Translations under genes and position numbers: made by a program
Shown: positions 19,976-44,680 of the stretch, in pieces
How the letters are laid out: every line of letters starts with the position of its first letter
How positions within the stretch are numbered: the first letter of the stretch is position 1
From: an uncultured Candidatus Saccharibacteria bacterium
GTDB taxonomy: Bacteria; Patescibacteriota; Andersenbacteria; UBA10190
Reading direction: 5' to 3'
DNA length: 64,000 nucleotides
Assembly: GCA_964610055.1 (NCBI GenBank)
Contig: CAZSUC010000001.1
Span: forward strand, 70,021-134,020
The notes under the pieces: model-generated
What the model saw: only the letters and a program-made list of their open reading frames with translations
Told to the model about the DNA's origin: nothing
Database searches by the model: none

Positions 19976-19995
19976 ATTCCCCCTTAATCGTACCC

Positions 19996-22828: not shown

Positions 22829-22887
22829 TTATCCACAGGTGTGTAGTTAACTTATCCCCTATTATCTGTGGATAATTTGGGGATAAG
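22829..22887. promoter_or_regulatory. cluster of four DnaA boxes upstream of dnaA (autoregulatory region / second half of oriC)
   Basis: TTATCCACA (22829-22837, perfect), CTTATCCCC (22851-22859), TGTGGATAA (22867-22875, perfect reverse) and GGGGATAAG (22879-22887). Together they form a quasi-palindrome. Confidence 0.7.
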
Positions 22888-27316: not shown

Positions 27317-27370
27317 ATTTCCACCTAGTTATCCACTATTACCCTGTATTTTCCACATACTTATTCACAC

Positions 27371-28986: not shown

Positions 28987-31508
28987 TTGTCGTGGCAACG
29001 GTCTGGTTAATTCGTTTTCGTAATGCTCAATTATTTCTCTTAGCTTTTTCCTTATTAGCTGGACAGCTTATTCGTGTGCCTTTGCCTGGTCAGGGTGGCG
29101 GTTTATTGCTTAGTGATATTGCTGTTCTGATCGTCTTGTTTTCTATCTTTTTAGATTTTATAAGACATAGACATGAGCTTGATTACATTAAATCGCAGTC
29201 TGCTCTAGTTATACTTTTCCTTTTTTTACCTTTTATTTTTTGGTCAGGTTTTACCTTGATTATTAATTCGTCTTGGTTGCTTTGGTCACAAATTTTAATC
29301 GCGGCTTCGTATTGGATTAGACTAACTGCTTATTTATTGGTTTTTCCTGCTCTAATTTGGCGTTTTGCTCGATACCCCCATGACCGTATTGTTATGCAAA
29401 AATATTTTCTCTGGGCTGTTTATGGAGTAATTGGATTGGGGCTAATTCAATTATTGTTTTTACCTCAACTTGATACTCTCGGAAAGTTTGGCTGGGATCC
29501 TCATCAGTTTCGTTTGGTGTCAACCTGGCTTGATCCTAATTTCGTCGGAGGATTTTTGTGTATCGGACTTTTTACTCTTCTTGCCTATAAAACTCGTTTG
29601 CGACCCGTCTCTGTATTTGTCACTCTTAGTGCTTTAATCTTAACCCGGTCTCGTAGTTCTTGGCTTGCGTTATTGCTCGTTATTCTACTCATTTCTCCTG
29701 TGATGATTTTTATGAGACTTCGGCGCTTATCACGTCCTCGTTTAGTATTGACTGCTAGTTTATTTAGCTTATTAGGCTTATTCCTTACACTTTTCATTCT
29801 TTTTCTCGGCAATCGTGCTCTCGGCCTTATAACTTACGATCCTACTGTTCAACTGCGCCAATCCTCTCTCTTGTCTGTCTGGCAAATCGTTCAAACGCAC
29901 CCCTTCGTTGGTGTTGGGTATAATGCTTATCAATTTACTGCTCTGCAATCAGGTTTGATTAGCGATTTTAATATCCATTCGCGCGCCGGAGCGGATAATA
30001 GTTTTTTAACGCTCTGGGTAACGACAGGCTTAATTGGAGTTATTTTATTTTGTCTGCCCTGGGTCGTTTTGATTTGGCTGCACTTTCGTCATTATTTACG
30101 CATCAATCAAGCTCTTTCTTTTGCTGTTATTTGCGCTATTTTGTTCCTGTTTTTTCAAGCCCAGTTTGTTAATAGCTTTCTTTATGCTCACTTGCTTTTA
30201 AGCGTGATTATACTTAGTGCGATTAGTTTTTATCCTGTCTCAGATCATTGTCTTTCGGTCAAAACAATCCGTCCTTTATTTTTTTTCTTGCCTAGGCGAA
30301 TTTTTCCTATTAGTTTTCTTATTTGTCTTATACCCGCTTATCTGATTCGTTTTCGTCTTTTTAACATCCCTACTAATCTCTTTGAGGTTTTTGTCTTAAT
30401 ATATTTTTGTTTTATTTTAATAATTCCTTCGTGTCGAAAAAAATGTCAGCAATCTACGCGACAAATACCCCTTCTCTTTTTGCTTACAATTACGTTTTTT
30501 GTTATTGCCTCTATTGTTTCTGTTATTATTTCACCTAATCTTTTGTCTAGTCTTGGGGTGTTAAAGGGGTGGATTATTATTCCGTTAATATTTGGTTGGC
30601 TGGTTTTTGTATCCATTACTCCTAATAACGCCAAATCTTTTGTGATTTTACCGCTTGCTTTTATTGGGGCGTTTTCTGCCCTGATTAGTTTATCTCAGCT
30701 TGGTACAACTAATCGTATTTATGGGTGGTATGATGTTCCTAATTCATTAGCACTTTGGTTAGCTCCTATTTTTGTTCTGACTTTCTGGGGCGGTCTAAAT
30801 CACTCTCGTTATCATCGTCTTTTTCTGTATCTTTCTCTTCCTATAGCTATTGCCTTGCTAGCAACTCAGTCTGTTAGTGGAATGATCGCCATTATTATTT
30901 CATTGGGTTCGGGAGCCTGTTTTTGGATTTCATCTATTAGTCGCCGCCATGTTTTAATTATCTTGGCTCTTAGTTTAGTTATTATTATAAGTTATCTTAG
31001 TGTAACTAACCGTCTTAATTATCTCTTTTTGCCGCTTACCGAACATCACCCTAATTCTATTTCCGTTCGTTTTCAGCTCTGGGACGTTTCATTAACACTT
31101 CTTAGTCAACACGGGTTGCTAGGAATTGGTTTAGGCCAATTTGAACCCGCTTATCAATCAGAAATTCATCGTCGTTTTGCTGTTTCGTATAAACCTACTC
31201 CATTACCCGAGTTCGTTTTTCGTGATCCGCATAACTTATTCTTTTCTTTTTGGCTCAACACCGGAATTATCGGTTTGGCCTCATTTTTAGCCTTGTTGTT
31301 TATTATTTTCCGCTACACTTTTCACAGCAAAAATCTTACCAGTAATCAAAAAGGCCTCATCTTGGCTTTAATTTGCTTATTAGTTTTTGGTTTAAGCGAC
31401 ACTATTTACTGGAAAAATGACCTCTCGGTGTTATTCTGGCTGCTGATTTTTTTACTTCTTAAATATTCTCATCCTGGGTCTTGGCACAAACCGTCTTTAC
31501 ATATATAA
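28926..31508 (+). CDS. large polytopic membrane protein with two O-antigen ligase/Wzy-like modules
   Basis: 860 aa, more than 20 TM helices. Two segments resemble Wzy_C (LTRSRSSWLALLLVILL and ATQSVSGMIAIIISLGSG regions). The start is uncertain because it overlaps the upstream GT2. Confidence 0.5.
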   Translation: MASLSMASSFLPLLLLAGALIVVATVWLIRFRNAQLFLLAFSLLAGQLIRVPLPGQGGGLLLSDIAVLIVLFSIFLDFIRHRHELDYIKSQSALVILFLFLPFIFWSGFTLIINSSWLLWSQILIAASYWIRLTAYLLVFPALIWRFARYPHDRIVMQKYFLWAVYGVIGLGLIQLLFLPQLDTLGKFGWDPHQFRLVSTWLDPNFVGGFLCIGLFTLLAYKTRLRPVSVFVTLSALILTRSRSSWLALLLVILLISPVMIFMRLRRLSRPRLVLTASLFSLLGLFLTLFILFLGNRALGLITYDPTVQLRQSSLLSVWQIVQTHPFVGVGYNAYQFTALQSGLISDFNIHSRAGADNSFLTLWVTTGLIGVILFCLPWVVLIWLHFRHYLRINQALSFAVICAILFLFFQAQFVNSFLYAHLLLSVIILSAISFYPVSDHCLSVKTIRPLFFFLPRRIFPISFLICLIPAYLIRFRLFNIPTNLFEVFVLIYFCFILIIPSCRKKCQQSTRQIPLLFLLTITFFVIASIVSVIISPNLLSSLGVLKGWIIIPLIFGWLVFVSITPNNAKSFVILPLAFIGAFSALISLSQLGTTNRIYGWYDVPNSLALWLAPIFVLTFWGGLNHSRYHRLFLYLSLPIAIALLATQSVSGMIAIIISLGSGACFWISSISRRHVLIILALSLVIIISYLSVTNRLNYLFLPLTEHHPNSISVRFQLWDVSLTLLSQHGLLGIGLGQFEPAYQSEIHRRFAVSYKPTPLPEFVFRDPHNLFFSFWLNTGIIGLASFLALLFIIFRYTFHSKNLTSNQKGLILALICLLVFGLSDTIYWKNDLSVLFWLLIFLLLKYSHPGSWHKPSLHI

Positions 31509-31921
31509 GGAGATTGACAATCATCGTTGTCTTGGCATAAAGGATTTTGCAGCTCACTCGCTAATTGCGGGTTAATCGTATTTAGTATTAGATACGAAGC
31601 CAGAGCCAAAACAATCCCAAACAAAGCAGATTTTATCCACGTTTTCGCTGTTTCCACTTGACCTCCATTTCCGCCCGCTGTCATGTATAAATACCCTCCC
31701 ACCACAACTGCAATAACCCCCGCGACAACTATAAGCGCCATAAATAATTGAAATATTTTATTTATATAAGCCACAAAACCAGATTGTGCCACTGCGTCAA
31801 TGCTTCCAGAAAATCCAGGAATAGCTACCTCGAAATCGCCAAAATCAGCCCTCGTTATAGGTGTTCTAACAGTCAATAACAAAATCGCTATGCTAACCCC
31901 AATGATTATCTTCTTTAACAT
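31469..31921 (-). CDS. small secreted two-helix protein, candidate VirB2/TrbC-like pilin, with a Cys-rich C-terminal tail
   Basis: Signal peptide followed by two long hydrophobic helices separated by the loop TAGGNGGQVETAKTW (pilin-like topology). C-terminal CQDNDDCQSPYICKDGLCQDPG. Confidence 0.35.
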   Translation of the reverse strand: MLKKIIIGVSIAILLLTVRTPITRADFGDFEVAIPGFSGSIDAVAQSGFVAYINKIFQLFMALIVVAGVIAVVVGGYLYMTAGGNGGQVETAKTWIKSALFGIVLALASYLILNTINPQLASELQNPLCQDNDDCQSPYICKDGLCQDPG

Positions 31922-31938
31922 AACCTTATTTTATCTGC

Positions 31939-32556
31939 TTATTTACCAAAAGCATAATTCATCACCCCAGAAACACCGTTTACTATTACACTTCCTATCT
32001 GTCCTACACCATGGGCCGCGCTATTTGCTATCAGATTTCCTACGTACCCTAACCCTGTCACAGAATTAGATAATATATCGATGTCAGTAATACTTAAAAT
32101 TATTAGAACGCTAATCAATATAGCTGTTCCTATTATCATCCATTGTAATATTGTTCCGGCTATTATCCCCCAAAACAGCCATTTTCCAACAACACTACCC
32201 GCTAATTGATCTCCTAAAAATGCGCCTATAATTCCTCCTAACCATGTCCCTGCCCCTGGTAATATAAAAGACCCTATTGCCGCTCCAATCACAGATCCTA
32301 ACCATACCCCAATTTTTCTTCTGGTTTTTTTCTCCAAGGAGTCTTTTTTTTGAGAATGGTTCTTGTTTTTCTGCAATGCTAATTTATTTTTAGCATAATC
32401 AACACCTCGAGATATTACCATGTTGCTTAAGTCCTGCGGCTGTGACACATGCTGCTTTGGTTTTTTTGTTTCTGAGCGTCTCAGCTGAGCTGCCTTTAAT
32501 CTTGCTGCCCTGACTTTTTCTTCCTTGTCTCTGTCTTGTTGGTTTAAACTAGGCAT
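31939..32556 (-). CDS. hypothetical membrane protein (Lys/Arg-rich N-terminus, glycine-zipper TM helices)
   Basis: GxxxG-rich hydrophobic C-terminal half; no family recognised. Confidence 0.35.
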   Translation of the reverse strand: MPSLNQQDRDKEEKVRAARLKAAQLRRSETKKPKQHVSQPQDLSNMVISRGVDYAKNKLALQKNKNHSQKKDSLEKKTRRKIGVWLGSVIGAAIGSFILPGAGTWLGGIIGAFLGDQLAGSVVGKWLFWGIIAGTILQWMIIGTAILISVLIILSITDIDILSNSVTGLGYVGNLIANSAAHGVGQIGSVIVNGVSGVMNYAFGK

Positions 32557-32563
32557 TAACTAA

Positions 32564-34414
32564 CTATACCTCGTTTGATTTCCTTTGCGCGGCCATCTCT
32601 TGTTTTGCTGCTTCAATCGCTAGAACTTGCTGAGGATCTGATGTAATAATTTGATCCTCAGCATAACTCGCTACAATTTTAATCGCCACATGTTTTAATC
32701 CGGCAAAAAAGATTCCTTCTCCTACATCGCTTTCTAATAATCTAAACTTTTCATGATCAGTTAAATAAAATACATCTCCTAATAAGTCGATCGCAGCCGG
32801 TGATTGACGCAGTAATAGTTGAATCGAAGAATTAGTGACAATTGGCTTGCCGTATTTTGATTGCAGAAAATCAGAAATATCCTGAGTGATTGTCGTAACG
32901 CCCAAGTAATACTTTCGTGCTCTTTTTGCCATTGAAAACAAGAAACGAGCTGATTCTTCGTGCTGCATCATAATCCAAGCCTCGTCTATAACTAGTAATC
33001 TTTTTTTAAGCTGACTCCGGATCCTATTCCAAATAAATCCTAAAATAACATACATTGCTATTGGTCTTAATTCGTCTTCCATGTCTCTCACATTAAACAC
33101 GACTAATTGTTGATTTAAATCAATATTTGTTGGTCGATTAAACACTCCTGCAAATGTACCCTCTACAAAACGCTCTAATCGTACCGCAATATTTCCTCCT
33201 CCTTCCATGTCTCGCATGATATTGAAAAAATCTTGCAACGTTGGCGTTTCCGGCTTATTCCAGCGCGTTTGCGGAGTAATATCTTTAATCGCATATGCTT
33301 CCCAGAGTCCGCGGTCAACCAACCCCTGTTCTTCAGGTGATAGTCCGTCTACCATTAGCGAAATCAATCCTACTAAACGCACGATATTTTCCCTCAAAAC
33401 TCCTTCTGGACTATCTTCTTCTCCTAGTTCTGGTAAATCGAATGGATTAATACGATGATCAGATGCAATGGCAATTTTTAAGTATGCTCCTCCCACTGCC
33501 TCAGCTAGATAACGATATTCTTGTTCTGGGTCAATTACCATTACTTCCGTTCCAAACATTAAACTGCGTAAAATCTCTAACTTTACCGTATATGATTTAC
33601 CAGCTCCGGATTTGGCAAAAATTACCATATTTGCATTCTCTAATCCAAATCGATCAAATAAAACTAAACTGGAATTATGTAAATTAATGCCATATAAAAC
33701 GCCAGAGTCCGATGTTAAGTCAGAACTTACAAAAGGAAAGCTAGTTGATAGTGGTGAAGAATTCATGTTGGTATTTACCATTAACTCATCCCGACCCAAT
33801 GGTAATGTTGAGGTAAAACCTTGTTCCATTTGGAATAACGCTGGTTTTGTATAAACTAAACGTCCTTCTAATAACACCTCAACCTGCGAGATGATGTCGT
33901 CTAATTCTTCCTCTGTCTTACCGTATATAGTTAGATACAAACCAAACTGAAAAAACTTTTCTGTACCTTGAACTAATCGATCACGTAATTCTTCAATATC
34001 ACGAAAAGCCGTTTCTAACTGTGGATCTCTGATTTTTCCAGCCTCGGCTTGCATTGAAATTGACGCCGATACTTGAGTCGCTCTCTTTCTTAATTCTTTC
34101 AGAATACTACTTGAACTTTGCGGATAAACAAACATCCCAACGTCAAATTCAATGTCAAAATTAACAATTGGCGCGAACCAATTCGTATCTAAATAACGAG
34201 GATATGTGATCACAAACAAGGTTTGGGCAAAACGACCATCTATCTCAATATACCTCGGAGTTACCCGAAAAGCGCTTGGAGCCACAATGTCTCGTAAAGA
34301 TGATACTCCTTGATTGTATTGATTAATTGCAGCCTGGTCTTCGACACTTGATGTCGATTTTTTTGCTCCTTCTTTTCCTTTTAAAAAAGTAGTTACGTCT
34401 CCTAAAACTCCCAT
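32564..34414 (-). CDS. virB4: VirB4/TraC/CagE-family T4SS ATPase, C-terminal ATPase portion
   Basis: Walker A MVIFAKSGAGKSYTV, Walker B LLVIDEAW; 616 aa. The ATG at 34412-34414 has GGAGG six nt upstream. Confidence 0.8.
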   Translation of the reverse strand: MGVLGDVTTFLKGKEGAKKSTSSVEDQAAINQYNQGVSSLRDIVAPSAFRVTPRYIEIDGRFAQTLFVITYPRYLDTNWFAPIVNFDIEFDVGMFVYPQSSSSILKELRKRATQVSASISMQAEAGKIRDPQLETAFRDIEELRDRLVQGTEKFFQFGLYLTIYGKTEEELDDIISQVEVLLEGRLVYTKPALFQMEQGFTSTLPLGRDELMVNTNMNSSPLSTSFPFVSSDLTSDSGVLYGINLHNSSLVLFDRFGLENANMVIFAKSGAGKSYTVKLEILRSLMFGTEVMVIDPEQEYRYLAEAVGGAYLKIAIASDHRINPFDLPELGEEDSPEGVLRENIVRLVGLISLMVDGLSPEEQGLVDRGLWEAYAIKDITPQTRWNKPETPTLQDFFNIMRDMEGGGNIAVRLERFVEGTFAGVFNRPTNIDLNQQLVVFNVRDMEDELRPIAMYVILGFIWNRIRSQLKKRLLVIDEAWIMMQHEESARFLFSMAKRARKYYLGVTTITQDISDFLQSKYGKPIVTNSSIQLLLRQSPAAIDLLGDVFYLTDHEKFRLLESDVGEGIFFAGLKHVAIKIVASYAEDQIITSDPQQVLAIEAAKQEMAAQRKSNEV

Positions 34415-34415
34415 A

Positions 34416-35117
34416 TTAACCTCCTCGTGGTTTTAATTCCTCGACTTGTAACTGGCTAGCGTTTTGTAGTCGTTGGTTTCTGCTTGTTACTGGATTATAA
34501 GCATTGTAATACAATTCTAATAATTCTTGAGTCTGCAACGGCACCACTCGTAATCCCATGCCACGCAATCCCGTGGCCACCTGATTCGCGCGTTGCAATA
34601 ATTGGGTGCGGTTATGTTCAAATTCCTGGGCGTTCATTTTAAATTGCCCTGTTGCACCCTTAACTCCTCGCCCGACTCGTTCAAATACACCTTCCTTTTT
34701 ATTCTGCTGTGCTGCAAACGGAACCGTAATAAAAAACGTTTTTGTCATAATATCACTATTTTTAACCAGTTCACCGACAAAATTAATATACTCATCCATT
34801 TGTAACCGCAATAATTCGTTCTGCTGCTTATCTCTTAATATTTTAACTTGTTCTAAATAAGGCGTAATATCCATTTTTCGACTACTCACGTTCACCTGCA
34901 CTGGAAAATCCAAGCTATTTAAAAAGTCTTGATAAGCATAAATAATAGCGTCCTGTTCATCCTGAGATTTTAGGGCAAAATTAATTGAAGACACCATCAA
35001 AACCATTCGCATGGTACCGTCATTTAAAATTGCCACTCCGTCTCGAATTTCGCTAATTCGAACCAATTGCTGGGATGGACGACCTTTTATTACCCCTGAC
35101 TGCATTTCTTGAGCCAT
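34416..35117 (-). CDS. VirB4 N-terminal domain (CagE_TrbE_VirB-like) encoded as a separate ORF
   Basis: VRISEIRDGVAILNDGTMRMVLMVSSINFALKSQDEQDAIIYAYQDFLNSL resembles the N-terminal region of VirB4/TrbE. Its stop TAA at 34416-34418 lies inside the SD-ATG spacer of the downstream ATPase ORF. Confidence 0.55.
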   Translation of the reverse strand: MAQEMQSGVIKGRPSQQLVRISEIRDGVAILNDGTMRMVLMVSSINFALKSQDEQDAIIYAYQDFLNSLDFPVQVNVSSRKMDITPYLEQVKILRDKQQNELLRLQMDEYINFVGELVKNSDIMTKTFFITVPFAAQQNKKEGVFERVGRGVKGATGQFKMNAQEFEHNRTQLLQRANQVATGLRGMGLRVVPLQTQELLELYYNAYNPVTSRNQRLQNASQLQVEELKPRGG

Positions 35118-35137
35118 GCCCTCTAGTATACCAGATT

Positions 35138-36120: not shown

Positions 36121-36123
36121 AAA

Positions 36124-37992
36124 TTATTTATTCTTCTTATCCTTTATTCTTCTTTCTGCTTTATGCAGAGCCTCAATTAATTTTTCATCATTGGTATTAT
36201 ATATTTCTTGTTTTGTGGCATCTGACATTTTCTCAACCATAGCATCGTTATTTAATACAGCTGTTACTCTGGTTCTGTCAGCGTCAGATTTCATATTCTT
36301 CACCATTGTCACAGTCATGTTATTTGTCTCTTCCGTTGTTAACTGCTCTCCTACTCGTTCGTCCCTTAAAACTGTCGGTGATGTTCTACTAATAGCGGAT
36401 AGGTTTCCTTGCGTAACGCCTCTAGAGCGTAAATCACTTGCTTGATTTTTAGCTTCTTTTGTTTTAGCGCGTTCTTTTGAATCAATCGCGTTATAAGCCT
36501 TAGTTCCCCATGACTTTTTCATTTTCTCTTCTTCCGTCTTTTTATCGGCATCTTCCCATGACTTAACAAGCGATCGCACTGGTCGAGTGACTCCCTTGTA
36601 TGCCTTTTGTGCTCCTATAGCACCCAAAAAACCTACTGGACCTGCCACCATTGTGCCAACAGTTTTTGGATTATTCCAAGTCCATTGAGCTGCTGATTTT
36701 GCCTTACCCTTTACCGTGTTTAAAACTTCTCCCGCTCCCGCCATGCCCGCAATCTTTCCAGCCGAAGCTGCTGCCAGCATTAAAGCTATTGAAATAATAA
36801 TATTTAACACTTCGGATAATTCTCTTGGCACTCCTGTGCCTGCTTTAATTGCGCCTCCGCCAATTACGGTTGCTAAAATTAAAATCAAAAGGGCAATTGG
36901 CCCAAATAACACCCATGCAATAAATTGCGTCCACCACTTTCTTGCTAATCCATCTGCTCCTGGAATCGCAATCGCTAAATATGCTGCCGGAGAAGCAATT
37001 AATAATAAAATTAACATAATATATCTTATCAAAAACCCAATCGTTGCTCCTGCCATTCCGATTACCAGTCCCCACGCCAGTATAGTTGTTTTAAGAACAT
37101 TAATTGGCCCACTCCAACTATCTCCTTCGGTCGGTAAATAATAACTGACTCCAAATGCGGTAGTTTGATAAAAATGATAACTTAAATAACCACTTTGTTT
37201 TAAAATATCCGTTCCCAAATTAGTTAAACTGCTAGTTGTTACTGTTCTAACTAACACAGCCATAGCTAATCTGGAAGCATCAATAATGATACCGCCGATT
37301 ACTAAACTAAAATTGATGAGCAAAGCAGCTGCTAGTAATCGAGGCAAAAAGCGTTTTGGTTGAAATTGATCCAGCCTTAAAGTAAAAGCAAATGCTATAA
37401 ATAATAGCGCCAAGATAAAACCGAGATTGGCAAACCCCTGTACAACCGGCCAACCCGCCTGAACCATCGGGTTAGTTACAAAACTTCCAATCGAAATAAA
37501 CCAAGTTAGTAAAAATGAACATAACCATAATATCCAAATTGCCAAATTTACCCCCATGCTAAAGGCTCCGTTTAAAAACCAAATAAGTTTTAATTGCCAC
37601 CAGTCCGGCTTTGTTTCGGAATCAGTTTCTGTTATTTGTGCTGCTTGCTCAGCCGTACAAGCAACTAAGTATGGTCTTTTTTCTGTTTTACCTTCACCTA
37701 AAATATCAGAACCAAGAACATCTGAATATCCATTAAGATTTACTAATAAATAATTTTCTGGATAAGAAAGGATTATGTCGTCATCGCTTACACCCCAAAC
37801 CGCCTTTACACATCCTAGATTCTTTAATTCCTCATAAGTCATCGATGTACGTTTTGAGATCGATATATCTCCTTCGTTTATATAATGACTATTATCTTGC
37901 GCAATAATATGTTTTCCTGGAATTAATAAAACACTCCCCATCAAAAAGACGAACAAAGCATTTTTAAAATAACTATTCATTAACTTGAGCAT
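36124..37992 (-). CDS. polytopic membrane protein, VirB6/TrbL-like candidate
   Basis: 622 aa; signal peptide, extracellular N-terminal region, then at least 7 TM helices and a charged C-terminal tail; positioned in the operon like VirB6 analogues. Confidence 0.4.
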   Translation of the reverse strand: MLKLMNSYFKNALFVFLMGSVLLIPGKHIIAQDNSHYINEGDISISKRTSMTYEELKNLGCVKAVWGVSDDDIILSYPENYLLVNLNGYSDVLGSDILGEGKTEKRPYLVACTAEQAAQITETDSETKPDWWQLKLIWFLNGAFSMGVNLAIWILWLCSFLLTWFISIGSFVTNPMVQAGWPVVQGFANLGFILALLFIAFAFTLRLDQFQPKRFLPRLLAAALLINFSLVIGGIIIDASRLAMAVLVRTVTTSSLTNLGTDILKQSGYLSYHFYQTTAFGVSYYLPTEGDSWSGPINVLKTTILAWGLVIGMAGATIGFLIRYIMLILLLIASPAAYLAIAIPGADGLARKWWTQFIAWVLFGPIALLILILATVIGGGAIKAGTGVPRELSEVLNIIISIALMLAAASAGKIAGMAGAGEVLNTVKGKAKSAAQWTWNNPKTVGTMVAGPVGFLGAIGAQKAYKGVTRPVRSLVKSWEDADKKTEEEKMKKSWGTKAYNAIDSKERAKTKEAKNQASDLRSRGVTQGNLSAISRTSPTVLRDERVGEQLTTEETNNMTVTMVKNMKSDADRTRVTAVLNNDAMVEKMSDATKQEIYNTNDEKLIEALHKAERRIKDKKNK

Positions 37993-39557
37993 TGGTCAGG
38001 GAATAAACTGCAAAACGCATCCCCTAATGAATTTTGAATACTGCTCCAGATATCATCTACGCTAACACAAAAACCACAGCTATCGTTTGTGGCTTCATCA
38101 TGACGAAAAGTATCATTTGTTAATGCTAATAAAGCTGCTCGTGATCCACTCTCAAGCTTTGGATCAATTGCACTTACATTAGGAGATAAATCAGTTTTTG
38201 GCTCATCGTAAAAGTCGTACAGTCCGTTATATAATCCAGCAATAACGTCAAAAATACCCGCCACTTCTCCGCTCTCAGAACCTTCGCTTGTCTGGTCACT
38301 ACGTATTCCTTGTACGGTTCCGCTATCGCTACTACCGCGATCAACTAACTGTTGAGATCCTGGTGTATCACCTATTTCCGAATTAGCATATTTCAAATCT
38401 GTCACTTCTCGACTTAACGTGCCCGCTAATTCCCCTAACATGGCAATTTTAGCGCTCGCCGGTGTTGTAATTTCTCGGCTAATTGTTCTGTAATATACTC
38501 CGTTAGCACCTGCTGCATTAGCAGTTGATACTCCTGCTACGGTACCAGAAGTACTACCAGTTGCAATTACTTTTTCAGTATCCGCTTTCGCTCCATCTTG
38601 TTGTTCTGTAGACAATTGGCTCGCAACTTGATCTCCCGCAGAAATAGCACTTGAGAGAAAACTTGTTGGTGCATTCGCTAGTTGAGTAAGTTTATGAAAT
38701 ATTTCATCATCTGGAGCGCTGTCAGATAATGTTATTTCGCCTGTCTCGTCGTCTTCCACTAAATAATCAAATAAATTTGGATCAATTGCGGAATCGGTTT
38801 GAGGCCATGTACTCAAATGATTTACTGCCGCTTGTTGGGTGTCAGTTGTAGCATTTTCTCTTAAAGCAGCTAAGTTTGAATCAAATGGCAAAATATAATT
38901 AGGAGCATCTGAATCAGTCGTATCCGCTGCTTTTGATCTTAAATTTTGATCAGTAGACATGCCAGAATTCATAGCCGCCCCAATCCCAATCTCAATCTGC
39001 GCAGCTTGATTTTGAGCGCTTGTAACAAAAGCCGTGTCCTGATCTTGCAATGGTCCTGCCTCTGTACTACACGCTGCTCGTCCCAAGGCTCTTTCGCAAA
39101 ACACCCGCACCAATTCATCTGTATAATTTCGACGCGCTTTTTCTAGGCTCGATTGCTGTAGCTGATAGGCTGTCCATAAATCATTGCCTTCTAAGGTTAT
39201 ATTTCGCGTCACTACCGCTGCTAAATCCGTTTTAGTCGCATCTAACGCATCGTCTGATTGTGCCTCGAATCCCGCCTCGGTTCTTTTGTCTAATAAACTT
39301 TCTCGTGAAAAACTATCATCTTCATCGGCTGGCTCCACATAATCAGCCTGATCTAAGGCCGCTAAAATATTAAAAAACAATTGTTGTTGCCCTACTGCCG
39401 TGTAAAAAACAGCATGTGGATCAGCATGCGCAGACGGTATTGCACCTAAAAGGCCAAATATTAGCACAAACAATAGAATCAACGCAGTCCCGCGCAATTT
39501 TGTCACACTCAAACTTTGCCTACGGCCAGGCTTTTCCATGCGCTTATTATATACCAT
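37980..39557 (-). CDS. secreted Ser/Thr/Ala-rich protein with Cys-rich C-terminus
   Basis: N-terminal signal/anchor (LILLFVLIFGLLGAIPSAHA). C-terminal SCGFCVSVDD...FCSLFPDQCSS. Confidence 0.4.
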   Translation of the reverse strand: MVYNKRMEKPGRRQSLSVTKLRGTALILLFVLIFGLLGAIPSAHADPHAVFYTAVGQQQLFFNILAALDQADYVEPADEDDSFSRESLLDKRTEAGFEAQSDDALDATKTDLAAVVTRNITLEGNDLWTAYQLQQSSLEKARRNYTDELVRVFCERALGRAACSTEAGPLQDQDTAFVTSAQNQAAQIEIGIGAAMNSGMSTDQNLRSKAADTTDSDAPNYILPFDSNLAALRENATTDTQQAAVNHLSTWPQTDSAIDPNLFDYLVEDDETGEITLSDSAPDDEIFHKLTQLANAPTSFLSSAISAGDQVASQLSTEQQDGAKADTEKVIATGSTSGTVAGVSTANAAGANGVYYRTISREITTPASAKIAMLGELAGTLSREVTDLKYANSEIGDTPGSQQLVDRGSSDSGTVQGIRSDQTSEGSESGEVAGIFDVIAGLYNGLYDFYDEPKTDLSPNVSAIDPKLESGSRAALLALTNDTFRHDEATNDSCGFCVSVDDIWSSIQNSLGDAFCSLFPDQCSS

Positions 39558-40463
39558 TTATGACAGGTTGTATTTCGTTTCTAAGGCAGTAACTGCTTGT
39601 TCTATCTCATTAAACACATCAGCTAAGTCCCCAATCTTTTTAGCCCCAATCAAGCCTTTAACTAAATCACCAGGCATCTCTGTCATCATCTCGACCGCAT
39701 CCGCCAGGGCCGTTGAAGCGGCAATATATTTTTTGTGCAAATCAACCACTTCTTCCGGCGCAGAAATGCTTTTTAGTACTAATACATTTTGACGTAATGC
39801 TAAAAGCATGTTTTTCATTTGATCTGGATCAACCAATTGACGGGCAAACGCCTCTTCAATATCACTGCTGCTCACCGCCGTTAAATCTTTGTTATGAGTA
39901 GCAGAAATACTATCTAAATAAGCTTTAATTGCCTCTGCTCCTGTCGTATTTTCTGTTTTAATATCCGTATCGGATATAGTTGGCAATAATTCGCCCGCAT
40001 TCTCATTTATATATGCTGTAATATTGTCTTCGCTCATAATTTCTGCCTGATCAATATCTCGCGGCAAGCCACTTAAATACTTTCCAGTTTCTGTACTAGT
40101 ATCAAACACAGCCTCACCTGTTTCAGGCTTAATTTCATCGTTTGGACCAGCTGTTAATGGATCTCGCCCTAATTGAATTTCATCTAAGTCATCCACTCCG
40201 TCTGAATCAGTATCAGCATTATTTGGGTCAGTTTGATATAATACTTCAAAGCTATCTGGAATTCCGTCTCCATCAGAATCTGTCGTTCCGGCCACTTCCC
40301 CAGCGTTCGGTGTTGGCGAAGCTTGCGCAATTTGCTGACCCCCGCTGTCTTTAGTTGCTAAATGATACAAGGCGACCCCTCCTTGCCATAAGCCATACGT
40401 CAAACCGAAAGCCATCGCTGTAACCAATGCAGTTGTTAAACCTAGTCTATTCGTTGCTTTCAT
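39558..40463 (-). CDS. secreted protein with thrombospondin-type-3-like Ca-binding Asp repeats (paralogue of 42860-43822)
   Basis: DSDGDGIPDSFEVLYQTDPNNADTDSDGVDDLDEIQLGRDPLTAGPND; signal peptide. Confidence 0.5.
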   Translation of the reverse strand: MKATNRLGLTTALVTAMAFGLTYGLWQGGVALYHLATKDSGGQQIAQASPTPNAGEVAGTTDSDGDGIPDSFEVLYQTDPNNADTDSDGVDDLDEIQLGRDPLTAGPNDEIKPETGEAVFDTSTETGKYLSGLPRDIDQAEIMSEDNITAYINENAGELLPTISDTDIKTENTTGAEAIKAYLDSISATHNKDLTAVSSSDIEEAFARQLVDPDQMKNMLLALRQNVLVLKSISAPEEVVDLHKKYIAASTALADAVEMMTEMPGDLVKGLIGAKKIGDLADVFNEIEQAVTALETKYNLS

Positions 40464-40488
40464 ATAAATTTATCATATCACAATTTTT

Positions 40489-42888
40489 TTAGAGCCAAGG
40501 TTCAGTATGCCTTGTGTCTAACAAACACTCTTCTGTTGAGGTGACATACATGTCCAGCTTTGTAATTGGTTGGCCTGAACCACACGTCGCCACTCCACCA
40601 CCACTGCTCACAACTTCTCCGCAATGACAACTACAATCGGTCGCCCAGTAAGGATCTCCGGGCTCTCCTCCGCATGGCGTTCCTGAAACAGCTGCATCTT
40701 CAATAACCGTATTTTCACCCCCACTAACATATTCTGGAGGGGCGATGACACCAGCTTTAGCTGGCGCATTTCCACCCTCACCCTTTAAAACAAACTCCGG
40801 ATAACCATTCGACTCGCACCAAGTTGTCTCTACCGCCGCCGCAAATTCAGTCGCCTCCATACAGTCTGTCGCCACAGTTTTTGGTGCATCTAAAGCCACT
40901 TCCCAATATTCCAAGCGAATTTTATCATCCGCTGATTTATCATCATCCGCTTGAGTCTCATAAGTTGCTCTCCAAACCGCGTTAAATCCTAGTCGCCATC
41001 TCTCCGGCATTAAAATAATCAAATTATTAAGTGGTTCCTTATCGTCATTATCAAATTGGTCTAAAGCCTGATTAGCTAAATTCTGCCATTCATCTGGGCC
41101 AGAAGTATTATCCTCTCCTGTAAATGTCAAAAATGATAGCTGAGTTTGAGTATAGGTAGTTGTACGATTATCTAAATTTTCTTCATATGCTTGTTTTACT
41201 GCTACTAAGGATGCTTCTAAACCACCGTCATTTGCTTCTCCGGGACAAGCTATCCCAATTGATTCTTTTGCGTTTGCAATCGCCGCCCGCGCAACTGGAT
41301 CAAATTTTTCCTTTCGATCAGTTTGCATCTCAGCATAATTATTAGCCAACTCTTTTTGAGCTGATTCTGTTTGCTGCTGCCAATTACTATAGGCCTGAGT
41401 TAGTTCTTGCCTAGCTGCATCGGTGTCTTTGTTCCCGTCTAACACCGCTCCTAATGTGTCAATAACGCTCTGAGCATGATCATAATATATCTCCCTTAAT
41501 TTTTCTTTAGCTGCAATCTTGTTTTTTATCCCTAATAATTCATTTTCATGAACCAGGGTAGAAAAATTTCTCCCACTTTGCCATAACGGTTTCATATATG
41601 GAGCTGCTGGATCATCTTCGCGCAAGAAAGCATCTTGAAAAGATGGATCAGACACTACGTCATCAGCTAAAACGCTACACTCTCCGGGTAAAATTACCGC
41701 AATCGCTTCTAAAAATCTCTTTCCTAATTTCATGGCTTCATACCATGGCGTGGCCACATCAAATCTATTGCCTAAATCTGGTATTGAATCAACGCACCCA
41801 ACCTCTCCCGGACCGCAAATAATTGCCGGTTGTTTAGAAGCTAGCGGGGCAGAAGAAACATCCGGTGCTGAACAGTCATTACTAGGAATAATATGTGTGG
41901 TCACTGTTTTTTGGGCATTGTCACATTTTGACTTACAGCTATCAAAACAATTCTCCTTACACTCTTCTAAATTATCCTCGCATTGAGCTTTACAAGATTC
42001 TTTGCCACTTGTCCCGTCTGGCGCTTCCAGGTAACACCAATACTCCGGTAATGTATTGGGATCGTCTAACCACTCCCATCCTTCTGGTAAGGTGCCTGGC
42101 CTTATCGGCGGACAAGGTCTTATATATGTTCCCGGTAAGTTCACAATTTCACCACCGCTCAATTCTCCTTCCGTATCTTCGTCTTCTATCTCTTCACAAT
42201 CTTCAATACATATATCATATTCTTTCTCGCATTCCTCATAGCAATTTGGAATACATTTTTCCATGCATCTATATTTGTCATGTAAATTAGCGCAACTATA
42301 AAAAGAAGCCGTTACTTTTGCTGTTGCGGGAGCAATCGCTTCTACAAACGTTACTGTTACAGTTAAATCTAGCTCTTGGCCGGCATTAAAAGCATATAAT
42401 GGGTCATTTAAAAACTCCCCCACCTGCGCGCCCACATAATCATCCGGCAGGTCATTATTAATAATTTTTGCTCCGTCCGGTGCGTCAAAAGTAATTTTTA
42501 AGTTATACGCTGGCCCAGTTCCCACATTACGAATATAAACCCGATAGGTTATCGAATCCCCCTCAATTACGCAATAATCTTTATTAATTAAGAAAATCTC
42601 AATCTCAGGTGAGCCCGCGTTAACGTCACATGATGGCGCTGGCCCTATCATGGCAGCGACGTCTACTCCGTCTGTTGCCGCCTCAACACGTGGATCAGAA
42701 TTAAAATTACGCGAGATATATTTACTAGTAAATTTCTGATAATTAAAATCTTGTGATATTGGTACTGATATTTCTGCTTTTGTTTCCATCGGTAGCCACC
42801 ACCAGCTCAGACCTATCAGTAATCCTGCTAGCCACTTCGCCTTGTTTCGTCTGTGCATACTATTCGACTGAATTGGCCAACCGTTCAA
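40489..42888 (-). CDS. large secreted cysteine-rich acidic protein (799 aa)
   Basis: Signal/anchor at the N-terminus. Dense CxxxC/CxC blocks (CMEKCIPNCYEECEKEYDICIEDCEE, CKAQCEDNLEECKENCFDSCKSKCD). C-terminal CSCHCGEVV...TCGSG. Confidence 0.45.
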   Translation of the reverse strand: MNGWPIQSNSMHRRNKAKWLAGLLIGLSWWWLPMETKAEISVPISQDFNYQKFTSKYISRNFNSDPRVEAATDGVDVAAMIGPAPSCDVNAGSPEIEIFLINKDYCVIEGDSITYRVYIRNVGTGPAYNLKITFDAPDGAKIINNDLPDDYVGAQVGEFLNDPLYAFNAGQELDLTVTVTFVEAIAPATAKVTASFYSCANLHDKYRCMEKCIPNCYEECEKEYDICIEDCEEIEDEDTEGELSGGEIVNLPGTYIRPCPPIRPGTLPEGWEWLDDPNTLPEYWCYLEAPDGTSGKESCKAQCEDNLEECKENCFDSCKSKCDNAQKTVTTHIIPSNDCSAPDVSSAPLASKQPAIICGPGEVGCVDSIPDLGNRFDVATPWYEAMKLGKRFLEAIAVILPGECSVLADDVVSDPSFQDAFLREDDPAAPYMKPLWQSGRNFSTLVHENELLGIKNKIAAKEKLREIYYDHAQSVIDTLGAVLDGNKDTDAARQELTQAYSNWQQQTESAQKELANNYAEMQTDRKEKFDPVARAAIANAKESIGIACPGEANDGGLEASLVAVKQAYEENLDNRTTTYTQTQLSFLTFTGEDNTSGPDEWQNLANQALDQFDNDDKEPLNNLIILMPERWRLGFNAVWRATYETQADDDKSADDKIRLEYWEVALDAPKTVATDCMEATEFAAAVETTWCESNGYPEFVLKGEGGNAPAKAGVIAPPEYVSGGENTVIEDAAVSGTPCGGEPGDPYWATDCSCHCGEVVSSGGGVATCGSGQPITKLDMYVTSTEECLLDTRHTEPWL

Positions 42889-43822
42889 TTTCTTGAGTGA
42901 TCAACGGGTAGTATTGTCTATCAATCGTATCTAACTGTTGTAAAGCCACGAGCGATCTAATTGGATCCGTATTCCATAATGCAATCTCATCTAAAGTCGC
43001 TGCTAATAACTCAGTGTATCCTAATAACAATTTATGTAAGGCAACGGCTGTCGTTGGTGCCTTCTCGTCAAATAAAGATTGCTGATATTGTCTTACTTGC
43101 AAGCTCATAGAATCAATCCTGGCAGTATTATTATTCGTATATAACTCATCTAACGCCTTAGATAAGGTCTGGGAATCGGATAATTGCTGAATAGATCTTG
43201 CCTGATTAAGATATAAACTCAAAGTTAAAGTAGAATTATCAGTTGTTGTTTGAATAGCTGACTCTTGCACGGTTGGCAGCTTAGTAATAATTGATTGGGT
43301 CTGCGCATAAGCAATCATGTTTGCTGTTGTTGTTTCTTCTGTGCTATGAGTTTGAGTGTATGCTTCGGTTAAATTTGATTTCTCGGCATATAAATCTAAG
43401 TCAGATTCAAAATACTGATCTACTTGTAATGGAGCTAAATCTAGCGCTTGCAAATCCTGACCCGGTTCATAATTATCAGGCAAGGTATCATTAGGCCCAG
43501 CAATTGTTGGATTATGTTGGTTAGTCACCTCATCTCCATCTAAATATCCGTCTCCGTCTGTATCTGCTGTATAAGCATCTGTTCCCCATAAAGCCTCATC
43601 AGCATTAATCAATCCATCCTGATCCGCATCACCATTTGGATCTTCTTCTGCTAGTCTTTGTGTTCCTTCGCTCGCAACCAATAATACCGGAGTGCTTGTT
43701 GCAACTTCTGTGGTGTCTGTACTTGTATTACTTCGCAAGCGCTGAATTACCAATACCACCGTGCCTGCTATCATGCCGACAATAAGCACAATTAAAATAC
43801 CCAAAATTAAACGTCGTGGCAT
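42860..43822 (-). CDS. membrane-anchored protein with thrombospondin-type-3-like Ca-binding Asp repeats (paralogue of 39558-40463)
   Basis: N-terminal TM helix; DADQDGLINADEALWGTDAYTADTDGDGYLDGDEVTNQHNPTIAGPND, colinear with the repeat block of the paralogue. Confidence 0.5.
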   Translation of the reverse strand: MPRRLILGILIVLIVGMIAGTVVLVIQRLRSNTSTDTTEVATSTPVLLVASEGTQRLAEEDPNGDADQDGLINADEALWGTDAYTADTDGDGYLDGDEVTNQHNPTIAGPNDTLPDNYEPGQDLQALDLAPLQVDQYFESDLDLYAEKSNLTEAYTQTHSTEETTTANMIAYAQTQSIITKLPTVQESAIQTTTDNSTLTLSLYLNQARSIQQLSDSQTLSKALDELYTNNNTARIDSMSLQVRQYQQSLFDEKAPTTAVALHKLLLGYTELLAATLDEIALWNTDPIRSLVALQQLDTIDRQYYPLITQEIERLANSVE

Positions 43823-43842
43823 AGCCTCTAGTATACCACGAC

Positions 43843-44679: not shown

Positions 44680-44680
44680 A

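What the first reader, a model, noticed from the sequence alone, without database searches (positions are those of the whole stretch)
31469..43822. 12-kb co-directional minimal T4SS-like locus with large secreted Cys-rich and Ca-binding-repeat proteins, lacking relaxase, coupling protein and VirB11
Eleven minus-strand genes with overlapping or abutting boundaries encode four T4SS-like components: a PrgI/VirB3-like protein, VirB4 (split into N-terminal and ATPase ORFs), a VirB6-like polytopic protein and a VirB2-like two-helix pilin candidate. Upstream are a 799-aa Cys-rich secreted protein, a 525-aa secreted protein and two paralogous Asp-repeat proteins. No VirD4, relaxase, VirB11 or cell-wall hydrolase is present. 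That makes a conjugative role unlikely and points to a dedicated surface or effector-translocation apparatus. By my recollection, comparable minimal T4SS loci in Patescibacteria (Saccharibacteria) have been implicated in the epibiotic lifestyle. The accessory secreted proteins here may be the interaction-specific cargo or tip components.
Basis: partly seen in the sequence, partly recalled or inferred. Interest (0 to 1): 0.75.

Follow-up and report, generated by a model that had tools for sequence, protein, structure and literature searches.

The report
Patescibacterial chromosomal type IV secretion locus
This is the chromosomal, pilus-encoding, relaxase-less type IV secretion gene cluster already described for ultrasmall Patescibacteria, here in an Andersenbacteria-like genome; only its upstream lineage-specific surface-protein genes appear undescribed in the papers I read.

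Summary

The kind is already published. Wang et al. 2023 showed such a cluster is essential for epibiotic growth of Southlakia. Quinonero-Coronel et al. 2025 surveyed it in 3,035 Patescibacteria genomes. They report the same parts list, the absence of relaxase and the position near dnaA and ksgA.

One correction: the "split VirB4" is the conserved TrsD plus VirB4 gene pair, not a broken gene.

What the two papers' main texts do not mention is the accessory gene set. It is syntenic in all Andersenbacteria-like relatives whose contig covers the position. It is absent from lineages whose VirB4 is about 55% identical, and it has no Pfam family or known fold. The Cys-rich protein is present in only some relatives.

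Verdict: a new member of a known kind, of modest interest.

The parts
31469..31921 (-). VirB2-like T4SS pilin (150 aa). It has a signal peptide, a two-helix hairpin (TM segments about 56-74 and 95-113) and a C-terminal 4-Cys tail (residues 129-147).
   Evidence: PF18895 T4SS_pilin at 35.5 bits, above the cutoff of 26.6, over residues 47-116. NF045849 pilin at E 1.3e-5, below cutoff. The core GGYxYMTAGG..AK is conserved in 12 relatives, with variable N- and C-terminal additions. It is the only pilin gene in the window.
31939..32556 (-). 205-aa membrane protein with a basic N-terminal region, a glycine-zipper segment and a C-terminal TM helix. It is a lineage-specific component of unknown role.
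   Evidence: Gly-zipper_Omp at E 3.7e-5, just under cutoff. TM segments at 82-100 and 136-154. A profile finds a gene in the same position, between virB4 and the pilin gene, in 9 Andersenbacteria-like loci. The architecture is similar in L002 and L010.
32564..34414 (-). VirB4-family ATPase (616 aa). Walker A reads AKSGAGKS and Walker B reads LLVIDEAW.
   Evidence: NF045971 VirB4-like CD1110 family at 358.6 bits, above the cutoff of 325. PF19044, PF12846 and PF01935 also match. PDB 4ag5 at E 4e-44 and TrwK at E 9e-12. It is 75-85% identical to Andersenbacteria MAG genes. The best plasmid relatives are only 30-38% identical and come from Actinobacteria and Firmicutes. The motifs were read from the translation.
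34416..35117 (-). TrsD-like protein (233 aa), homologous to the N-terminal domain of full-length VirB4. It is a separate conserved gene, not a fragment.
   Evidence: It matches positions 2-153 of the CD1110 VirB4 profile at E 4.4e-10 and TrsD NF041427 at E 8e-4, both below cutoff. The precomputed Pfam hit is PF26593 TraC-like. It is a separate ORF at 38-76% identity in all 23 related loci whose contig covers the position, and lies up to 1.4 kb from virB4 in L007.
35138..35584 (-). PrgI/VirB3-like small membrane protein (148 aa).
   Evidence: PF12666 PrgI at 36 bits, above the cutoff of 27. It is conserved upstream of the TrsD gene in 22 related loci.
35584..36120 (-). 178-aa cytoplasmic protein: a helical domain of about 120 aa, then a disordered tail carrying a nearly invariant NVLDLK motif and a Pro-rich end. 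It is lineage-specific and of unknown role.
   Evidence: It has no family hit and no TM segment. It is present between the VirB6 and PrgI genes in 12 Andersenbacteria-like loci. Its stop overlaps the PrgI start by 1 nt.
36124..37992 (-). VirB6-like polytopic membrane protein (622 aa; the probable start is at 37980, giving 618 aa). It has a signal or anchor helix, an extracellular domain of about 110 aa, six to seven TM helices and a charged helical C-terminal tail of about 180 aa.
37980..39557 (-). Secreted 525-aa protein (gene callers give 519 aa). After the signal peptide the mature N-terminus is invariant (DPHAVFYT..Q.Q.F.N.LAAL.QAD). Conserved Cys pairs are present. It is lineage-specific.
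39558..40463 (-). 301-aa protein with a weakly hydrophobic N-terminus (a presumed membrane anchor, not picked up by the hydropathy scan), TSP3 Ca-binding repeats and a helical C-terminal domain. It is the paralogue of the 320-aa protein.
   Evidence: PF18884 TSP3_bac at 33.4 bits, above the cutoff of 25. Paralogy at E 1e-12. Both paralogues are kept as a pair in 7 relatives. In 4 of these, this copy has lost the TSP3 repeats.
40489..42888 (-). Cys-rich secreted protein (799 aa from the TTG start; the probable ATG start at 42858 gives 789 aa). It has a DUF11-like beta-sandwich (about residues 75-200), a Cys-rich acidic insert (about 196-325) and a conserved disulfide-rich core ending in PGDPYWAxDCSCHCG...RHD. 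Its presence varies among relatives.
   Evidence: 30 Cys. DUF11 matches weakly at E 4e-3, and TIGR01451 at E 1.8e-4. Only 93 representatives with E below 1e-3 were found among 1.84 billion proteins. The conserved part spans residues 325-799, and the N-terminal domain matches giant DUF11 surface proteins. It is found in only 3 of 9 related loci that cover the position. Invariant Cys positions are in the alignment.
42860..43822 (-). 320-aa bitopic protein with an N-terminal TM anchor (residues 8-26), TSP3 and EF-hand-like Ca-binding repeats and a helical C-terminal domain. It is the first gene of the block.
   Evidence: TSP3_bac at 22.2 bits, below the cutoff of 25. Most homologues carry a precomputed PF18884 hit. 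It is 39-50% identical in 7 relatives, always directly downstream of ksgA. A divergent member sits two genes upstream of a VirB6 gene in L028.

Best explanation
The locus is the chromosomal type IV secretion system typical of Patescibacteria. That system is a derivative of the monoderm (MPF-FATA-type) conjugation machinery that has lost its link to DNA transfer. Here it sits in an Andersenbacteria-like genome.

Shown:
- The locus encodes a catalytically intact VirB4 ATPase and its TrsD partner.
- It encodes the membrane proteins PrgI/VirB3 and VirB6, and one Sec-exported VirB2-like pilin.
- It lies about 10 kb from dnaA in a syntenic chromosomal neighbourhood.
- No relaxase, coupling protein, VirB11 or integrase lies within 64 kb.

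Inferred from solved T4SS structures and from genetics in Southlakia:
- VirB4 with TrsD docks on PrgI and VirB6 in the cytoplasmic membrane.
- It uses ATP to extract pilin from the membrane and polymerise a surface filament on the VirB6 platform.
- The filament or channel serves contact with the host bacterium, either by protein export or by exchange of molecules, and not conjugation.

Inferred from topology and synteny only:
- The four upstream gene products are two membrane-anchored Ca-binding paralogues, the 525-aa secreted protein with an invariant mature N-terminus, and the disulfide-rich DUF11-like protein.
- They form or decorate the extracellular part of the machine in this lineage.
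- The variably present Cys-rich protein and the variable pilin termini are the likely host-contact surfaces.
For: Affinity to monoderm-type systems:
- The best curated family is the CD1110 (Clostridioides CTn2) VirB4.
- The best solved relative is the Thermoanaerobacter VirB4.
- The best plasmid relatives are actinobacterial and firmicute at 30-38% identity.

Chromosomal and vertically inherited:
- dnaA, dnaN, recF, rnpA and yidC lie at 18.9-24.5 kb, with ksgA and uvrD adjacent.
- The same gene order, from IF2 to VirB4, occurs in another Andersenbacteria MAG.
- The order KsgA ... pilin / Wzy recurs in up to 15 relatives.

Selection: VirB4 (75-85%) and TrsD (61-76%) are far more conserved than the neighbouring housekeeping KsgA (37-49%) and UvrD (46-49%). 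This is as expected for an essential machine.

The gene order VirB6..PrgI-TrsD-VirB4 equals SEML1_0011..0008 of Southlakia, all of which score as essential.

The literature describes the same kind of system, without relaxase, with VirB2-like pilins, and near dnaA and ksgA.

Accessory genes overlap or abut the core genes. They co-occur with the core in all Andersenbacteria-like loci with enough flank. All have a signal peptide or an N-terminal hydrophobic anchor-like stretch.
Against: - No function was measured, and no organism of this class is cultivated as far as I know.
- The absence of a coupling protein and a relaxase is shown only for this window. The 2025 survey found VirD4 homologues in 2,918 of its genomes, mostly far from virB4.
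- No VirB8-like or VirB1-like gene was recognised in the operon.
- The accessory proteins have no detectable homologue in the lineages with about 55% VirB4 identity. They also have no structural match.
- The whole neighbourhood is syntenic, so adjacency alone is weak evidence that the accessory genes belong to the machine.
- The block may be co-transcribed with the housekeeping genes uvrD and ksgA, given gaps of 1 and 20 nt.
Confidence: 0.75

Rival explanations
1. It is an ordinary conjugative system, an ICE or its remnant, whose relaxase and coupling protein are encoded elsewhere in the genome.
For: VirB4, TrsD, PrgI and VirB6 are homologous to Gram-positive conjugation proteins. T4CP homologues are common elsewhere in Patescibacteria genomes. 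The whole genome could not be scanned here.
Against: No integrase, relaxase, T4CP or repeat boundaries lie within 64 kb. The locus is embedded in conserved housekeeping synteny next to the replication origin in several species. VirB4 is more conserved than its housekeeping neighbours, whereas VirB6 and the accessory genes are much more divergent. That pattern is not what recent transfer of a whole element would produce. Relaxases were found in only 103 of 3,035 Patescibacteria genomes.
Confidence: 0.06
2. It is a DNA-uptake machine, analogous to the Helicobacter ComB or archaeal Ced systems, that feeds a nucleotide-auxotrophic cell.
For: Such systems also lack a relaxase and a T4CP. VirB4 shows a weak match to CedB at E 6e-11. 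Patescibacteria lack de novo nucleotide synthesis.
Against: The CedB score of 41.6 bits is far below that family's cutoff of 700. In Southlakia, competence depends on comEC and type IV pili, and deleting comEC did not affect viability although the T4SS is essential. No DNA-binding or nuclease component is present in the operon.
Confidence: 0.1
3. The core genes are a T4SS, but the four upstream genes are unrelated cell-surface genes that sit next to it only because the whole chromosome region is syntenic. These are the two TSP3 paralogues, the 525-aa protein and the Cys-rich protein.
For: Synteny extends well beyond the T4SS, from IF2 to yidC. The accessory families are absent from more distant T4SS loci. 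They have no similarity to any T4SS protein.
Against: Gene boundaries with the core are tight: the VirB6 start overlaps the stop of the 525-aa gene. In a more divergent lineage, a TSP3/helical paralogue is again followed by a large secreted protein and then a VirB6 gene. All four have a signal peptide or an N-terminal hydrophobic stretch, so they are predicted to be exported or membrane-anchored like the pilin.
Confidence: 0.25
4. The locus is decaying: VirB4 is broken into two ORFs and the system is non-functional.
For: Two adjacent ORFs together cover one full-length VirB4 profile.
Against: The two-gene state is conserved in all 23 related loci that cover the position, at 38-76% identity. 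The gaps between the two genes vary from 1 nt to 1.4 kb. The arrangement is the published TrsD/VirB4 pair, and the TrsD homologue is essential in Southlakia. The Walker A and B motifs are intact.
Confidence: 0.02

Closest known systems
Patescibacteria-clade T4SS, as surveyed by Quinonero-Coronel et al. 2025 (Microb Genom, PMC12102498)
   Same: VirB4 is related to the MPF-FATA type. There is an adjacent TrsD homologue, PrgI/VirB3, VirB6 and a VirB2-like pilin (PF18895) near virB4. No relaxase or T4CP lies nearby. The position is chromosomal, near dnaA, dnaN, rnpA and ksgA.
   Different: There is one pilin gene rather than an array, and no VirB1-like hydrolase in the operon. The upstream accessory set has no match in lineages with about 55% VirB4 identity: two TSP3 Ca-repeat paralogues, a 525-aa secreted protein and a Cys-rich DUF11-like protein. 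The 178- and 205-aa proteins are also lineage-specific. The paper's main text mentions neither Andersenbacteria nor TSP3.
Southlakia epibionticum ML1 T4SS, SEML1_0006-0019 (Wang et al. 2023, Cell, PMC10633639)
   Same: The core order is the same: VirB6-like, PrgI, TrsD-like, VirB4. Pilins with PF18895 lie in the cluster. No coupling protein or relaxase was recognised.
   Different: Southlakia has six divergent pilins, two VirB6-like proteins, an NTF2-like (VirB8-fold) protein, and peptidase and lysozyme genes next to virB4. None of these is seen here. Essentiality is shown there and is untested here.
Gram-positive conjugative MPF-FATA T4SSs (pCF10 Prg, pIP501 Tra, pGO1 Trs, CTn2 of C. difficile)
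   Same: They have homologous VirB4 (best curated family CD1110), TrsD, PrgI and a VirB6-class channel protein, and a monoderm architecture without VirB7, VirB9 or VirB10.
   Different: Those systems have a relaxase, a T4CP, a VirB1-like hydrolase, VirB8-like proteins and surface adhesins, and they have no VirB2 pilin. Here the first five were not found in the locus, and a pilin is present.
R388 Trw / VirB-type Gram-negative T4SS, whose stalk is VirB5-VirB6 and whose pilus is VirB2
   Different: There is no outer-membrane core complex and no VirB11. The 525-aa upstream protein shows no detectable VirB5/TraC fold similarity.

Membership tests
Patescibacteria-clade chromosomal T4SS (MPF-FATA-derived) | VirB4-family ATPase with intact NTP-binding motifs | tested here: met
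   NF045971 at 358.6 bits, above the cutoff of 325. 4ag5 at E 4e-44. Walker A reads AKSGAGKS and Walker B reads LLVIDEAW in the translation.
Patescibacteria-clade chromosomal T4SS (MPF-FATA-derived) | VirB4 falls in the monophyletic Patescibacteria clade nested in MPF-FATA | tested here: inconclusive
   No tree with reference classes was built. Indirect support: the nearest genes are from Andersenbacteria MAGs at 75-85% identity and from Berkelbacteria and other Patescibacteria at about 55%. The best non-CPR relatives are monoderm plasmid genes at 30-38%.
Patescibacteria-clade chromosomal T4SS (MPF-FATA-derived) | Separate TrsD-like gene next to virB4 | tested here: met
   The 233-aa ORF matches VirB4 profile positions 2-153 and TrsD, both below cutoff. 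The precomputed Pfam hit is PF26593 TraC-like. It is conserved as a separate ORF in 23 loci.
Patescibacteria-clade chromosomal T4SS (MPF-FATA-derived) | PrgI/VirB3 and VirB6 membrane components near virB4 | tested here: met
Patescibacteria-clade chromosomal T4SS (MPF-FATA-derived) | VirB2-like pilin gene near virB4 | tested here: met
   PF18895 scores above cutoff. The gene lies two genes downstream of virB4.
Patescibacteria-clade chromosomal T4SS (MPF-FATA-derived) | No relaxase near virB4, and a chromosomal context close to dnaA and ksgA | tested here: met
   No relaxase, T4CP or integrase was found in the 64 kb. dnaA lies at 21361-22836 and ksgA at 43843-44679.
Patescibacteria-clade chromosomal T4SS (MPF-FATA-derived) | Required for epibiotic growth on a host bacterium | not testable with these tools
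   This is known only for Southlakia, by Tn-seq.
Conjugative MPF-FATA T4SS (plasmid or ICE) | Relaxase and type IV coupling protein associated with the mating-pair-formation genes | tested here: not met
   Neither is present in the window. The rest of the genome could not be searched.
Conjugative MPF-FATA T4SS (plasmid or ICE) | Location on a mobile element, with an integrase, boundaries and variable insertion sites | tested here: not met
   No integrase was found. The same housekeeping flanks occur in several species.
Conjugative MPF-FATA T4SS (plasmid or ICE) | VirB1-like peptidoglycan hydrolase and VirB8-like protein in the operon | tested here: not met
   None of the 11 proteins has a hydrolase or NTF2/VirB8 family hit. 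A LysM-M23 peptidase lies outside the operon at 46845-48269. Only the 622- and 525-aa proteins were tested for fold.
DNA-import T4SS (Ced / ComB type) | CedB- or ComB4-type ATPase with cognate Ced or ComB partners | tested here: not met
   CedB NF041017 scores 41.6 bits against a cutoff of 700, and CedD scores 19 bits against 600. No other Ced or ComB family hit was found.

The most novel reading that the evidence does not exclude
The upstream genes may encode a previously undescribed extracellular module of a pilus-bearing monoderm T4SS. The genes are two Ca-binding bitopic paralogues, the 525-aa secreted protein with an invariant mature N-terminus, and the variably present disulfide-rich DUF11-like protein. 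Under this reading:
- the 525-aa protein acts as an analogue of VirB5, sitting on the VirB6 platform or at the pilus base or tip;
- the Ca-repeat pair forms a wall-spanning collar;
- the Cys-rich protein and the Cys-knot tails on the pilin act as host-specific adhesins.

The published survey did not find adhesins in Patescibacteria.
Probability: 0.25. Interest if true: 0.55.

Novelty: new member of a known kind. Interest (0 to 1): 0.33.

Why it matters
The Patescibacteria T4SS is currently the only T4SS known to be essential for the bacterium that carries it. It is suspected to be the conduit between an ultrasmall epibiont and its host, but its substrate and its extracellular architecture are unknown.

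This locus adds nothing new about the core machine. It does provide a compact single-pilin version from an uncultivated class, Andersenbacteria, with a defined set of conserved and exported accessory proteins. These are candidates for the missing extracellular, adhesin or VirB5/VirB8-like parts. It also shows that the ATPase pair is under much stronger constraint than the neighbouring housekeeping genes.

If the accessory set is truly part of the machine, it would indicate that the host-facing part of the apparatus is reinvented in each class.

Tried and rejected
- **VirB6 by direct sequence.** Pfam and NCBIfam gave no hit for the 622-aa protein. A family profile against PDB sequences gave only low-complexity noise. 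The assignment had to come from homologues and from fold.
- **Homology between the 525-aa protein and the 688-aa secreted protein in the same position in the divergent locus L028.** None was detectable.
- **Accessory families in the lineages with about 55% VirB4 identity.** Profiles for all six found nothing. L015 instead has a Peptidase_M15_4 gene after virB4.
- **A second pilin or other paralogues elsewhere in the window.** None was found.
- **VirB11.** The only PF00437 ATPase (4217-5899) is 560 aa with an MshEN domain. It is therefore PilB/GspE-like, not VirB11.
- **Promoter and terminator scan.** Counts do not exceed the shuffled controls, so the operon limits remain undefined.
- **Foldseek against AFDB50.** This could not be run because the library was unavailable.
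- **Whole-genome scan for VirD4, relaxase, VirB8 and VirB1.** This was not possible, as only the window and 10-kb flanks of related contigs were accessible.

Full report
**What is there.** The region 31469-43822 holds eleven co-directional minus-strand ORFs of 150, 205, 616, 233, 148, 178, 622, 525, 301, 799 and 320 aa. Boundaries range from a 29-nt overlap to a 25-nt gap. Two more co-directional genes follow upstream with gaps of 20 and 1 nt: ksgA (43843-44679) and a UvrD/PcrA helicase gene (44681-46804). The pilin gene at the downstream end converges on, and overlaps by 40 nt, an 860-aa Wzy_C O-antigen-ligase-like gene.

**Context.** The window is chromosomal. It contains recF, dnaN and dnaA (18875-22836), rnpA and yidC, and a class A PBP. 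It also contains ruvABC-type genes, infB and rbfA, and an rRNA operon. None of the ORFs of 110 aa or more that I scanned (all the non-nested ones) matches a relaxase, VirD4/TcpA coupling protein, VirB11 or integrase. The single PF00437 ATPase (4217-5899) is a 560-aa PilB/GspE-type protein with an MshEN domain.

**Core components.**
- The 616-aa protein is a VirB4 ATPase. NCBIfam's CD1110-family VirB4 model scores 358.6 bits, above its cutoff of 325, covering profile positions 179-733.
  - The closest solved relative is the Thermoanaerobacter VirB4 (4ag5, E 4e-44), ahead of TrwK of R388 (E 9e-12).
  - Walker A (AKSGAGKS) and Walker B (LLVIDEAW) are intact.
- The 233-aa ORF matches positions 2-153 of the same VirB4 profile and, weakly, TrsD. 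Gene catalogues record PF26593 TraC-like for it.
- The 148-aa protein is PrgI/VirB3, and the 150-aa protein is a T4SS pilin (PF18895). Both score above the Pfam gathering thresholds.
- The 622-aa protein has no direct family hit, but two lines of evidence support a VirB6 assignment.
  - By homology, its relatives extend to proteins carrying PF04610 and PF19590, and 6 of 42 aligned homologues match TrbL/VirB6.
  - TrwI chains are also its top five Foldseek hits.

**The 'split' VirB4.** The two-ORF state is not damage. Every related locus whose contig covers the position (23 of 25) has a separate TrsD-like ORF at 38-76% identity. It is sometimes separated from virB4 by 0.5-1.4 kb. This is the TrsD/VirB4 pair that Quinonero-Coronel et al. 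report as the most frequent virB4 partner in Patescibacteria. The Southlakia homologue is essential.

**Organism and synteny.**
- VirB4 is 75-85% identical to genes in Candidatus Andersenbacteria MAGs. It is about 55% identical to genes in Berkelbacteria and other Patescibacteria.
- In the Andersenbacteria-like loci the gene order is KsgA, TSP320, [Cys-rich protein], TSP301, 525-aa protein, VirB6, 178-aa protein, PrgI, TrsD, VirB4, 205-aa protein, pilin, then the convergent Wzy gene. This order is kept wherever the contig is long enough.
- One MAG shows the same chromosome order out to infB on one side and to yidC and rnpA on the other.
- Identity to relatives is uneven:

| Gene | Identity to relatives |
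|---|---|
| VirB4 | 75-85% |
| TrsD | 61-76% |
| PrgI | about 50% |
| Pilin | about 45% |
| VirB6 and accessory genes | 20-50% |
| KsgA (housekeeping) | 37-49% |
| UvrD (housekeeping) | 46-49% |

(All.) The ATPase pair is under unusually strong constraint. The pattern does not look like recent transfer of a whole element.

**Accessory genes.**
- The 320- and 301-aa proteins are paralogues at E 1e-12. The 320-aa protein has a clear N-terminal TM anchor (residues 8-26). The 301-aa protein has only a weakly hydrophobic N-terminus that the hydropathy scan did not pick up, so I presume rather than show that it is anchored.
  - Both carry thrombospondin-type-3 Ca-binding repeats and a helical C-terminal domain.
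  - They are retained as a pair in seven relatives.
  - Full-length homologues come only from Andersenbacteria.
  - One divergent member (23% identity) is followed by a 688-aa secreted protein and a VirB6 gene.
- The 525-aa protein has a signal peptide followed by an invariant mature N-terminus (DPHAVFYT..Q.Q.F.N.LAAL.QAD) and conserved cysteines.
  - It has about 100 homologue clusters. None has a Pfam domain and all named ones are from Andersenbacteria.
- The 799-aa protein (probably 789 aa) has 30 cysteines and a weak DUF11-type beta-sandwich.
  - A Cys-rich acidic insert is present in only some homologues.
  - A conserved disulfide-rich core ends in PGDPYWAxDCSCHCG...RHD.
  - Only 93 cluster representatives among 1.84 billion proteins match it.
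  - It is present in only 3 of the 9 related loci that cover its position.
- The 178-aa protein is cytoplasmic, with a nearly invariant NVLDLK motif in a disordered tail.
- The 205-aa protein is a glycine-zipper membrane protein.

None of these six families is detectable in the lineages with about 55% VirB4 identity, even with profiles. One such locus instead has a Peptidase_M15_4 gene directly after virB4.

**The pilin.** The two-helix core is conserved, but the termini vary. This genome has a 4-Cys module at the C-terminus. Three relatives have a Cys-rich module at the N-terminus of the mature protein. Three others have C-terminal extensions of about 200 aa. There is only one pilin gene in the window, against six in Southlakia.

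**What is known.**
- Wang et al. 2023 (PMC10633639) found that the Southlakia T4SS cluster, including its pilins, is essential for epibiotic growth. They noted that it resembles Gram-positive conjugative systems but lacks recognisable coupling and relaxase proteins.
- Quinonero-Coronel et al. 2025 (PMC12102498) surveyed 3,035 Patescibacteria genomes and found VirB4 in 2,417 of them.
  - They describe a monophyletic Patescibacteria clade nested in MPF-FATA, with TrsD, PrgI/VirB3, VirB6 and VirB2-like pilins near virB4.
  - Relaxases are almost absent, and T4CP homologues lie mostly far from virB4.
  - The loci sit near dnaA, dnaN, rnpA and ksgA.
- A 2025 T4SS review repeats these points.

The finding is therefore a correct rediscovery of a published kind of system. 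The main text of the survey mentions neither Andersenbacteria, TSP3 repeats nor a Cys-rich partner. It states that no adhesins were detected.

**Mechanism.**
- Shown: the parts list, topology, conservation and context described above.
- Inferred from solved Gram-negative T4SS structures and from the Southlakia genetics: VirB4 with TrsD docks on PrgI and VirB6 and drives extraction and polymerisation of the Sec-exported pilin. The product is a surface filament or channel used in contact with a host bacterium, not for conjugation.
- Inferred from synteny and topology only: the Ca-binding pair and the 525-aa protein are fixed extracellular parts of the machine in this class. The variably present Cys-rich protein and the variable pilin termini are host-contact surfaces.

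**Rivals.**
- A conjugative element with distant relaxase and T4CP is unlikely, given the synteny and the survey statistics.
- A DNA-uptake machine is not excluded, but it is disfavoured by the comEC result in Southlakia and by the sub-threshold Ced matches.
- The accessory genes may be mere neighbours. This remains a real possibility, because the whole region is syntenic.
- Decay of the locus is refuted by the conservation data.

**Verdict.** The locus is a new member of a known kind, with an Andersenbacteria-restricted accessory gene set that I did not find described in the papers read and whose function is unknown. Interest is modest.

Noticed in passing
window 53645-64000 (-): The rRNA operon is interrupted. 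The 23S rRNA match spans 4,286 nt for a 2,925-nt model and contains a LAGLIDADG endonuclease ORF (55188-55895), so it carries one or more introns. Protein genes lie between the rRNA genes: a CCA-adding/poly(A) polymerase-family enzyme (60691-62163) between tRNA-Ile and tRNA-Ala, and a phosphoribosyltransferase (59479-60120) and a membrane protein with mechanosensitive-channel TM-helix repeats (58617-59357) between tRNA-Ala and the 23S gene. To my knowledge this is typical of CPR genomes.
   Followed up: partly
window 24976-31508 (+): A glycan cluster converges on the pilin gene: a Wzx-like flippase, three GT2 glycosyltransferases and an 860-aa double-length Wzy_C protein. The Wzy_C protein is split into two ORFs of 462 and 417 aa in L002. 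Its 3' end overlaps the pilin gene's 3' end by 40 nt. To my knowledge, Wzy_C is also the domain of pilin O-oligosaccharyltransferases (PilO/TfpO, PglL), so pilin or surface-protein glycosylation is conceivable. However, the adjacency is part of general synteny.
   Followed up: partly
window 46845-48269 (+): A LysM x2 plus Peptidase_M23 cell-wall hydrolase is transcribed divergently from uvrD-ksgA-T4SS. The same arrangement occurs in an Andersenbacteria MAG (L029 5182-6477). The 2025 survey found M23 and LysM domains on some VirB1-like proteins, so this is a candidate wall-remodelling partner outside the operon.
   Followed up: partly
window 32564-35117 versus 43843-46804, compared across L001-L014 and L023: VirB4 (75-85%) and TrsD (61-76%) are far more conserved between species than the adjacent housekeeping KsgA (37-49%) and UvrD (46-49%).
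   Followed up: partly
window 43813-43842 (-): An 11-bp-stem hairpin (GTCGTGGTATA...TATGCCACGAC) followed by a T-rich tract fills the ksgA-TSP320 intergenic gap and overlaps the TSP320 start codon. It could be a terminator, an attenuator or a translational control element. Terminator-like sites are not enriched over shuffles in the region.
   Followed up: no
window 31469-31921 (-) and relatives (alignment A5): Small Cys-rich modules are attached to the VirB2-like pilin. They sit at the C-terminus in this genome and at the mature N-terminus in L002, L003 and L013. L008, L011 and L014 have C-terminal extensions of about 200 aa. The termini vary while the core is conserved.
   Followed up: partly
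window 12808-15703 (+): A gene pair encodes a PKD plus 7TM_transglut membrane protein, then an ATP-grasp (ATPgrasp_ST/RimK-like) protein fused to a Zn_protease-like domain. This is a peptide-ligase-type system of unknown role.
   Followed up: no
window 7028-9109 (-) and 4217-5899 (-): A 693-aa protein with lamin-tail domain, PKD and OB-fold matches lies near an isolated PilB-type ATPase gene (560 aa, with MshEN). No other pilus genes are nearby in the window. The two may relate to DNA uptake or to type IV pili.
   Followed up: no
L015 11857-13029 (+): In a lineage with about 55% VirB4 identity, a Peptidase_M15_4 protein is encoded directly after virB4. PEGA-domain proteins flank the cluster, and the VirB6 homologues are much longer (866-1114 aa). 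This shows that the accessory gene set differs between these lineages.
   Followed up: partly
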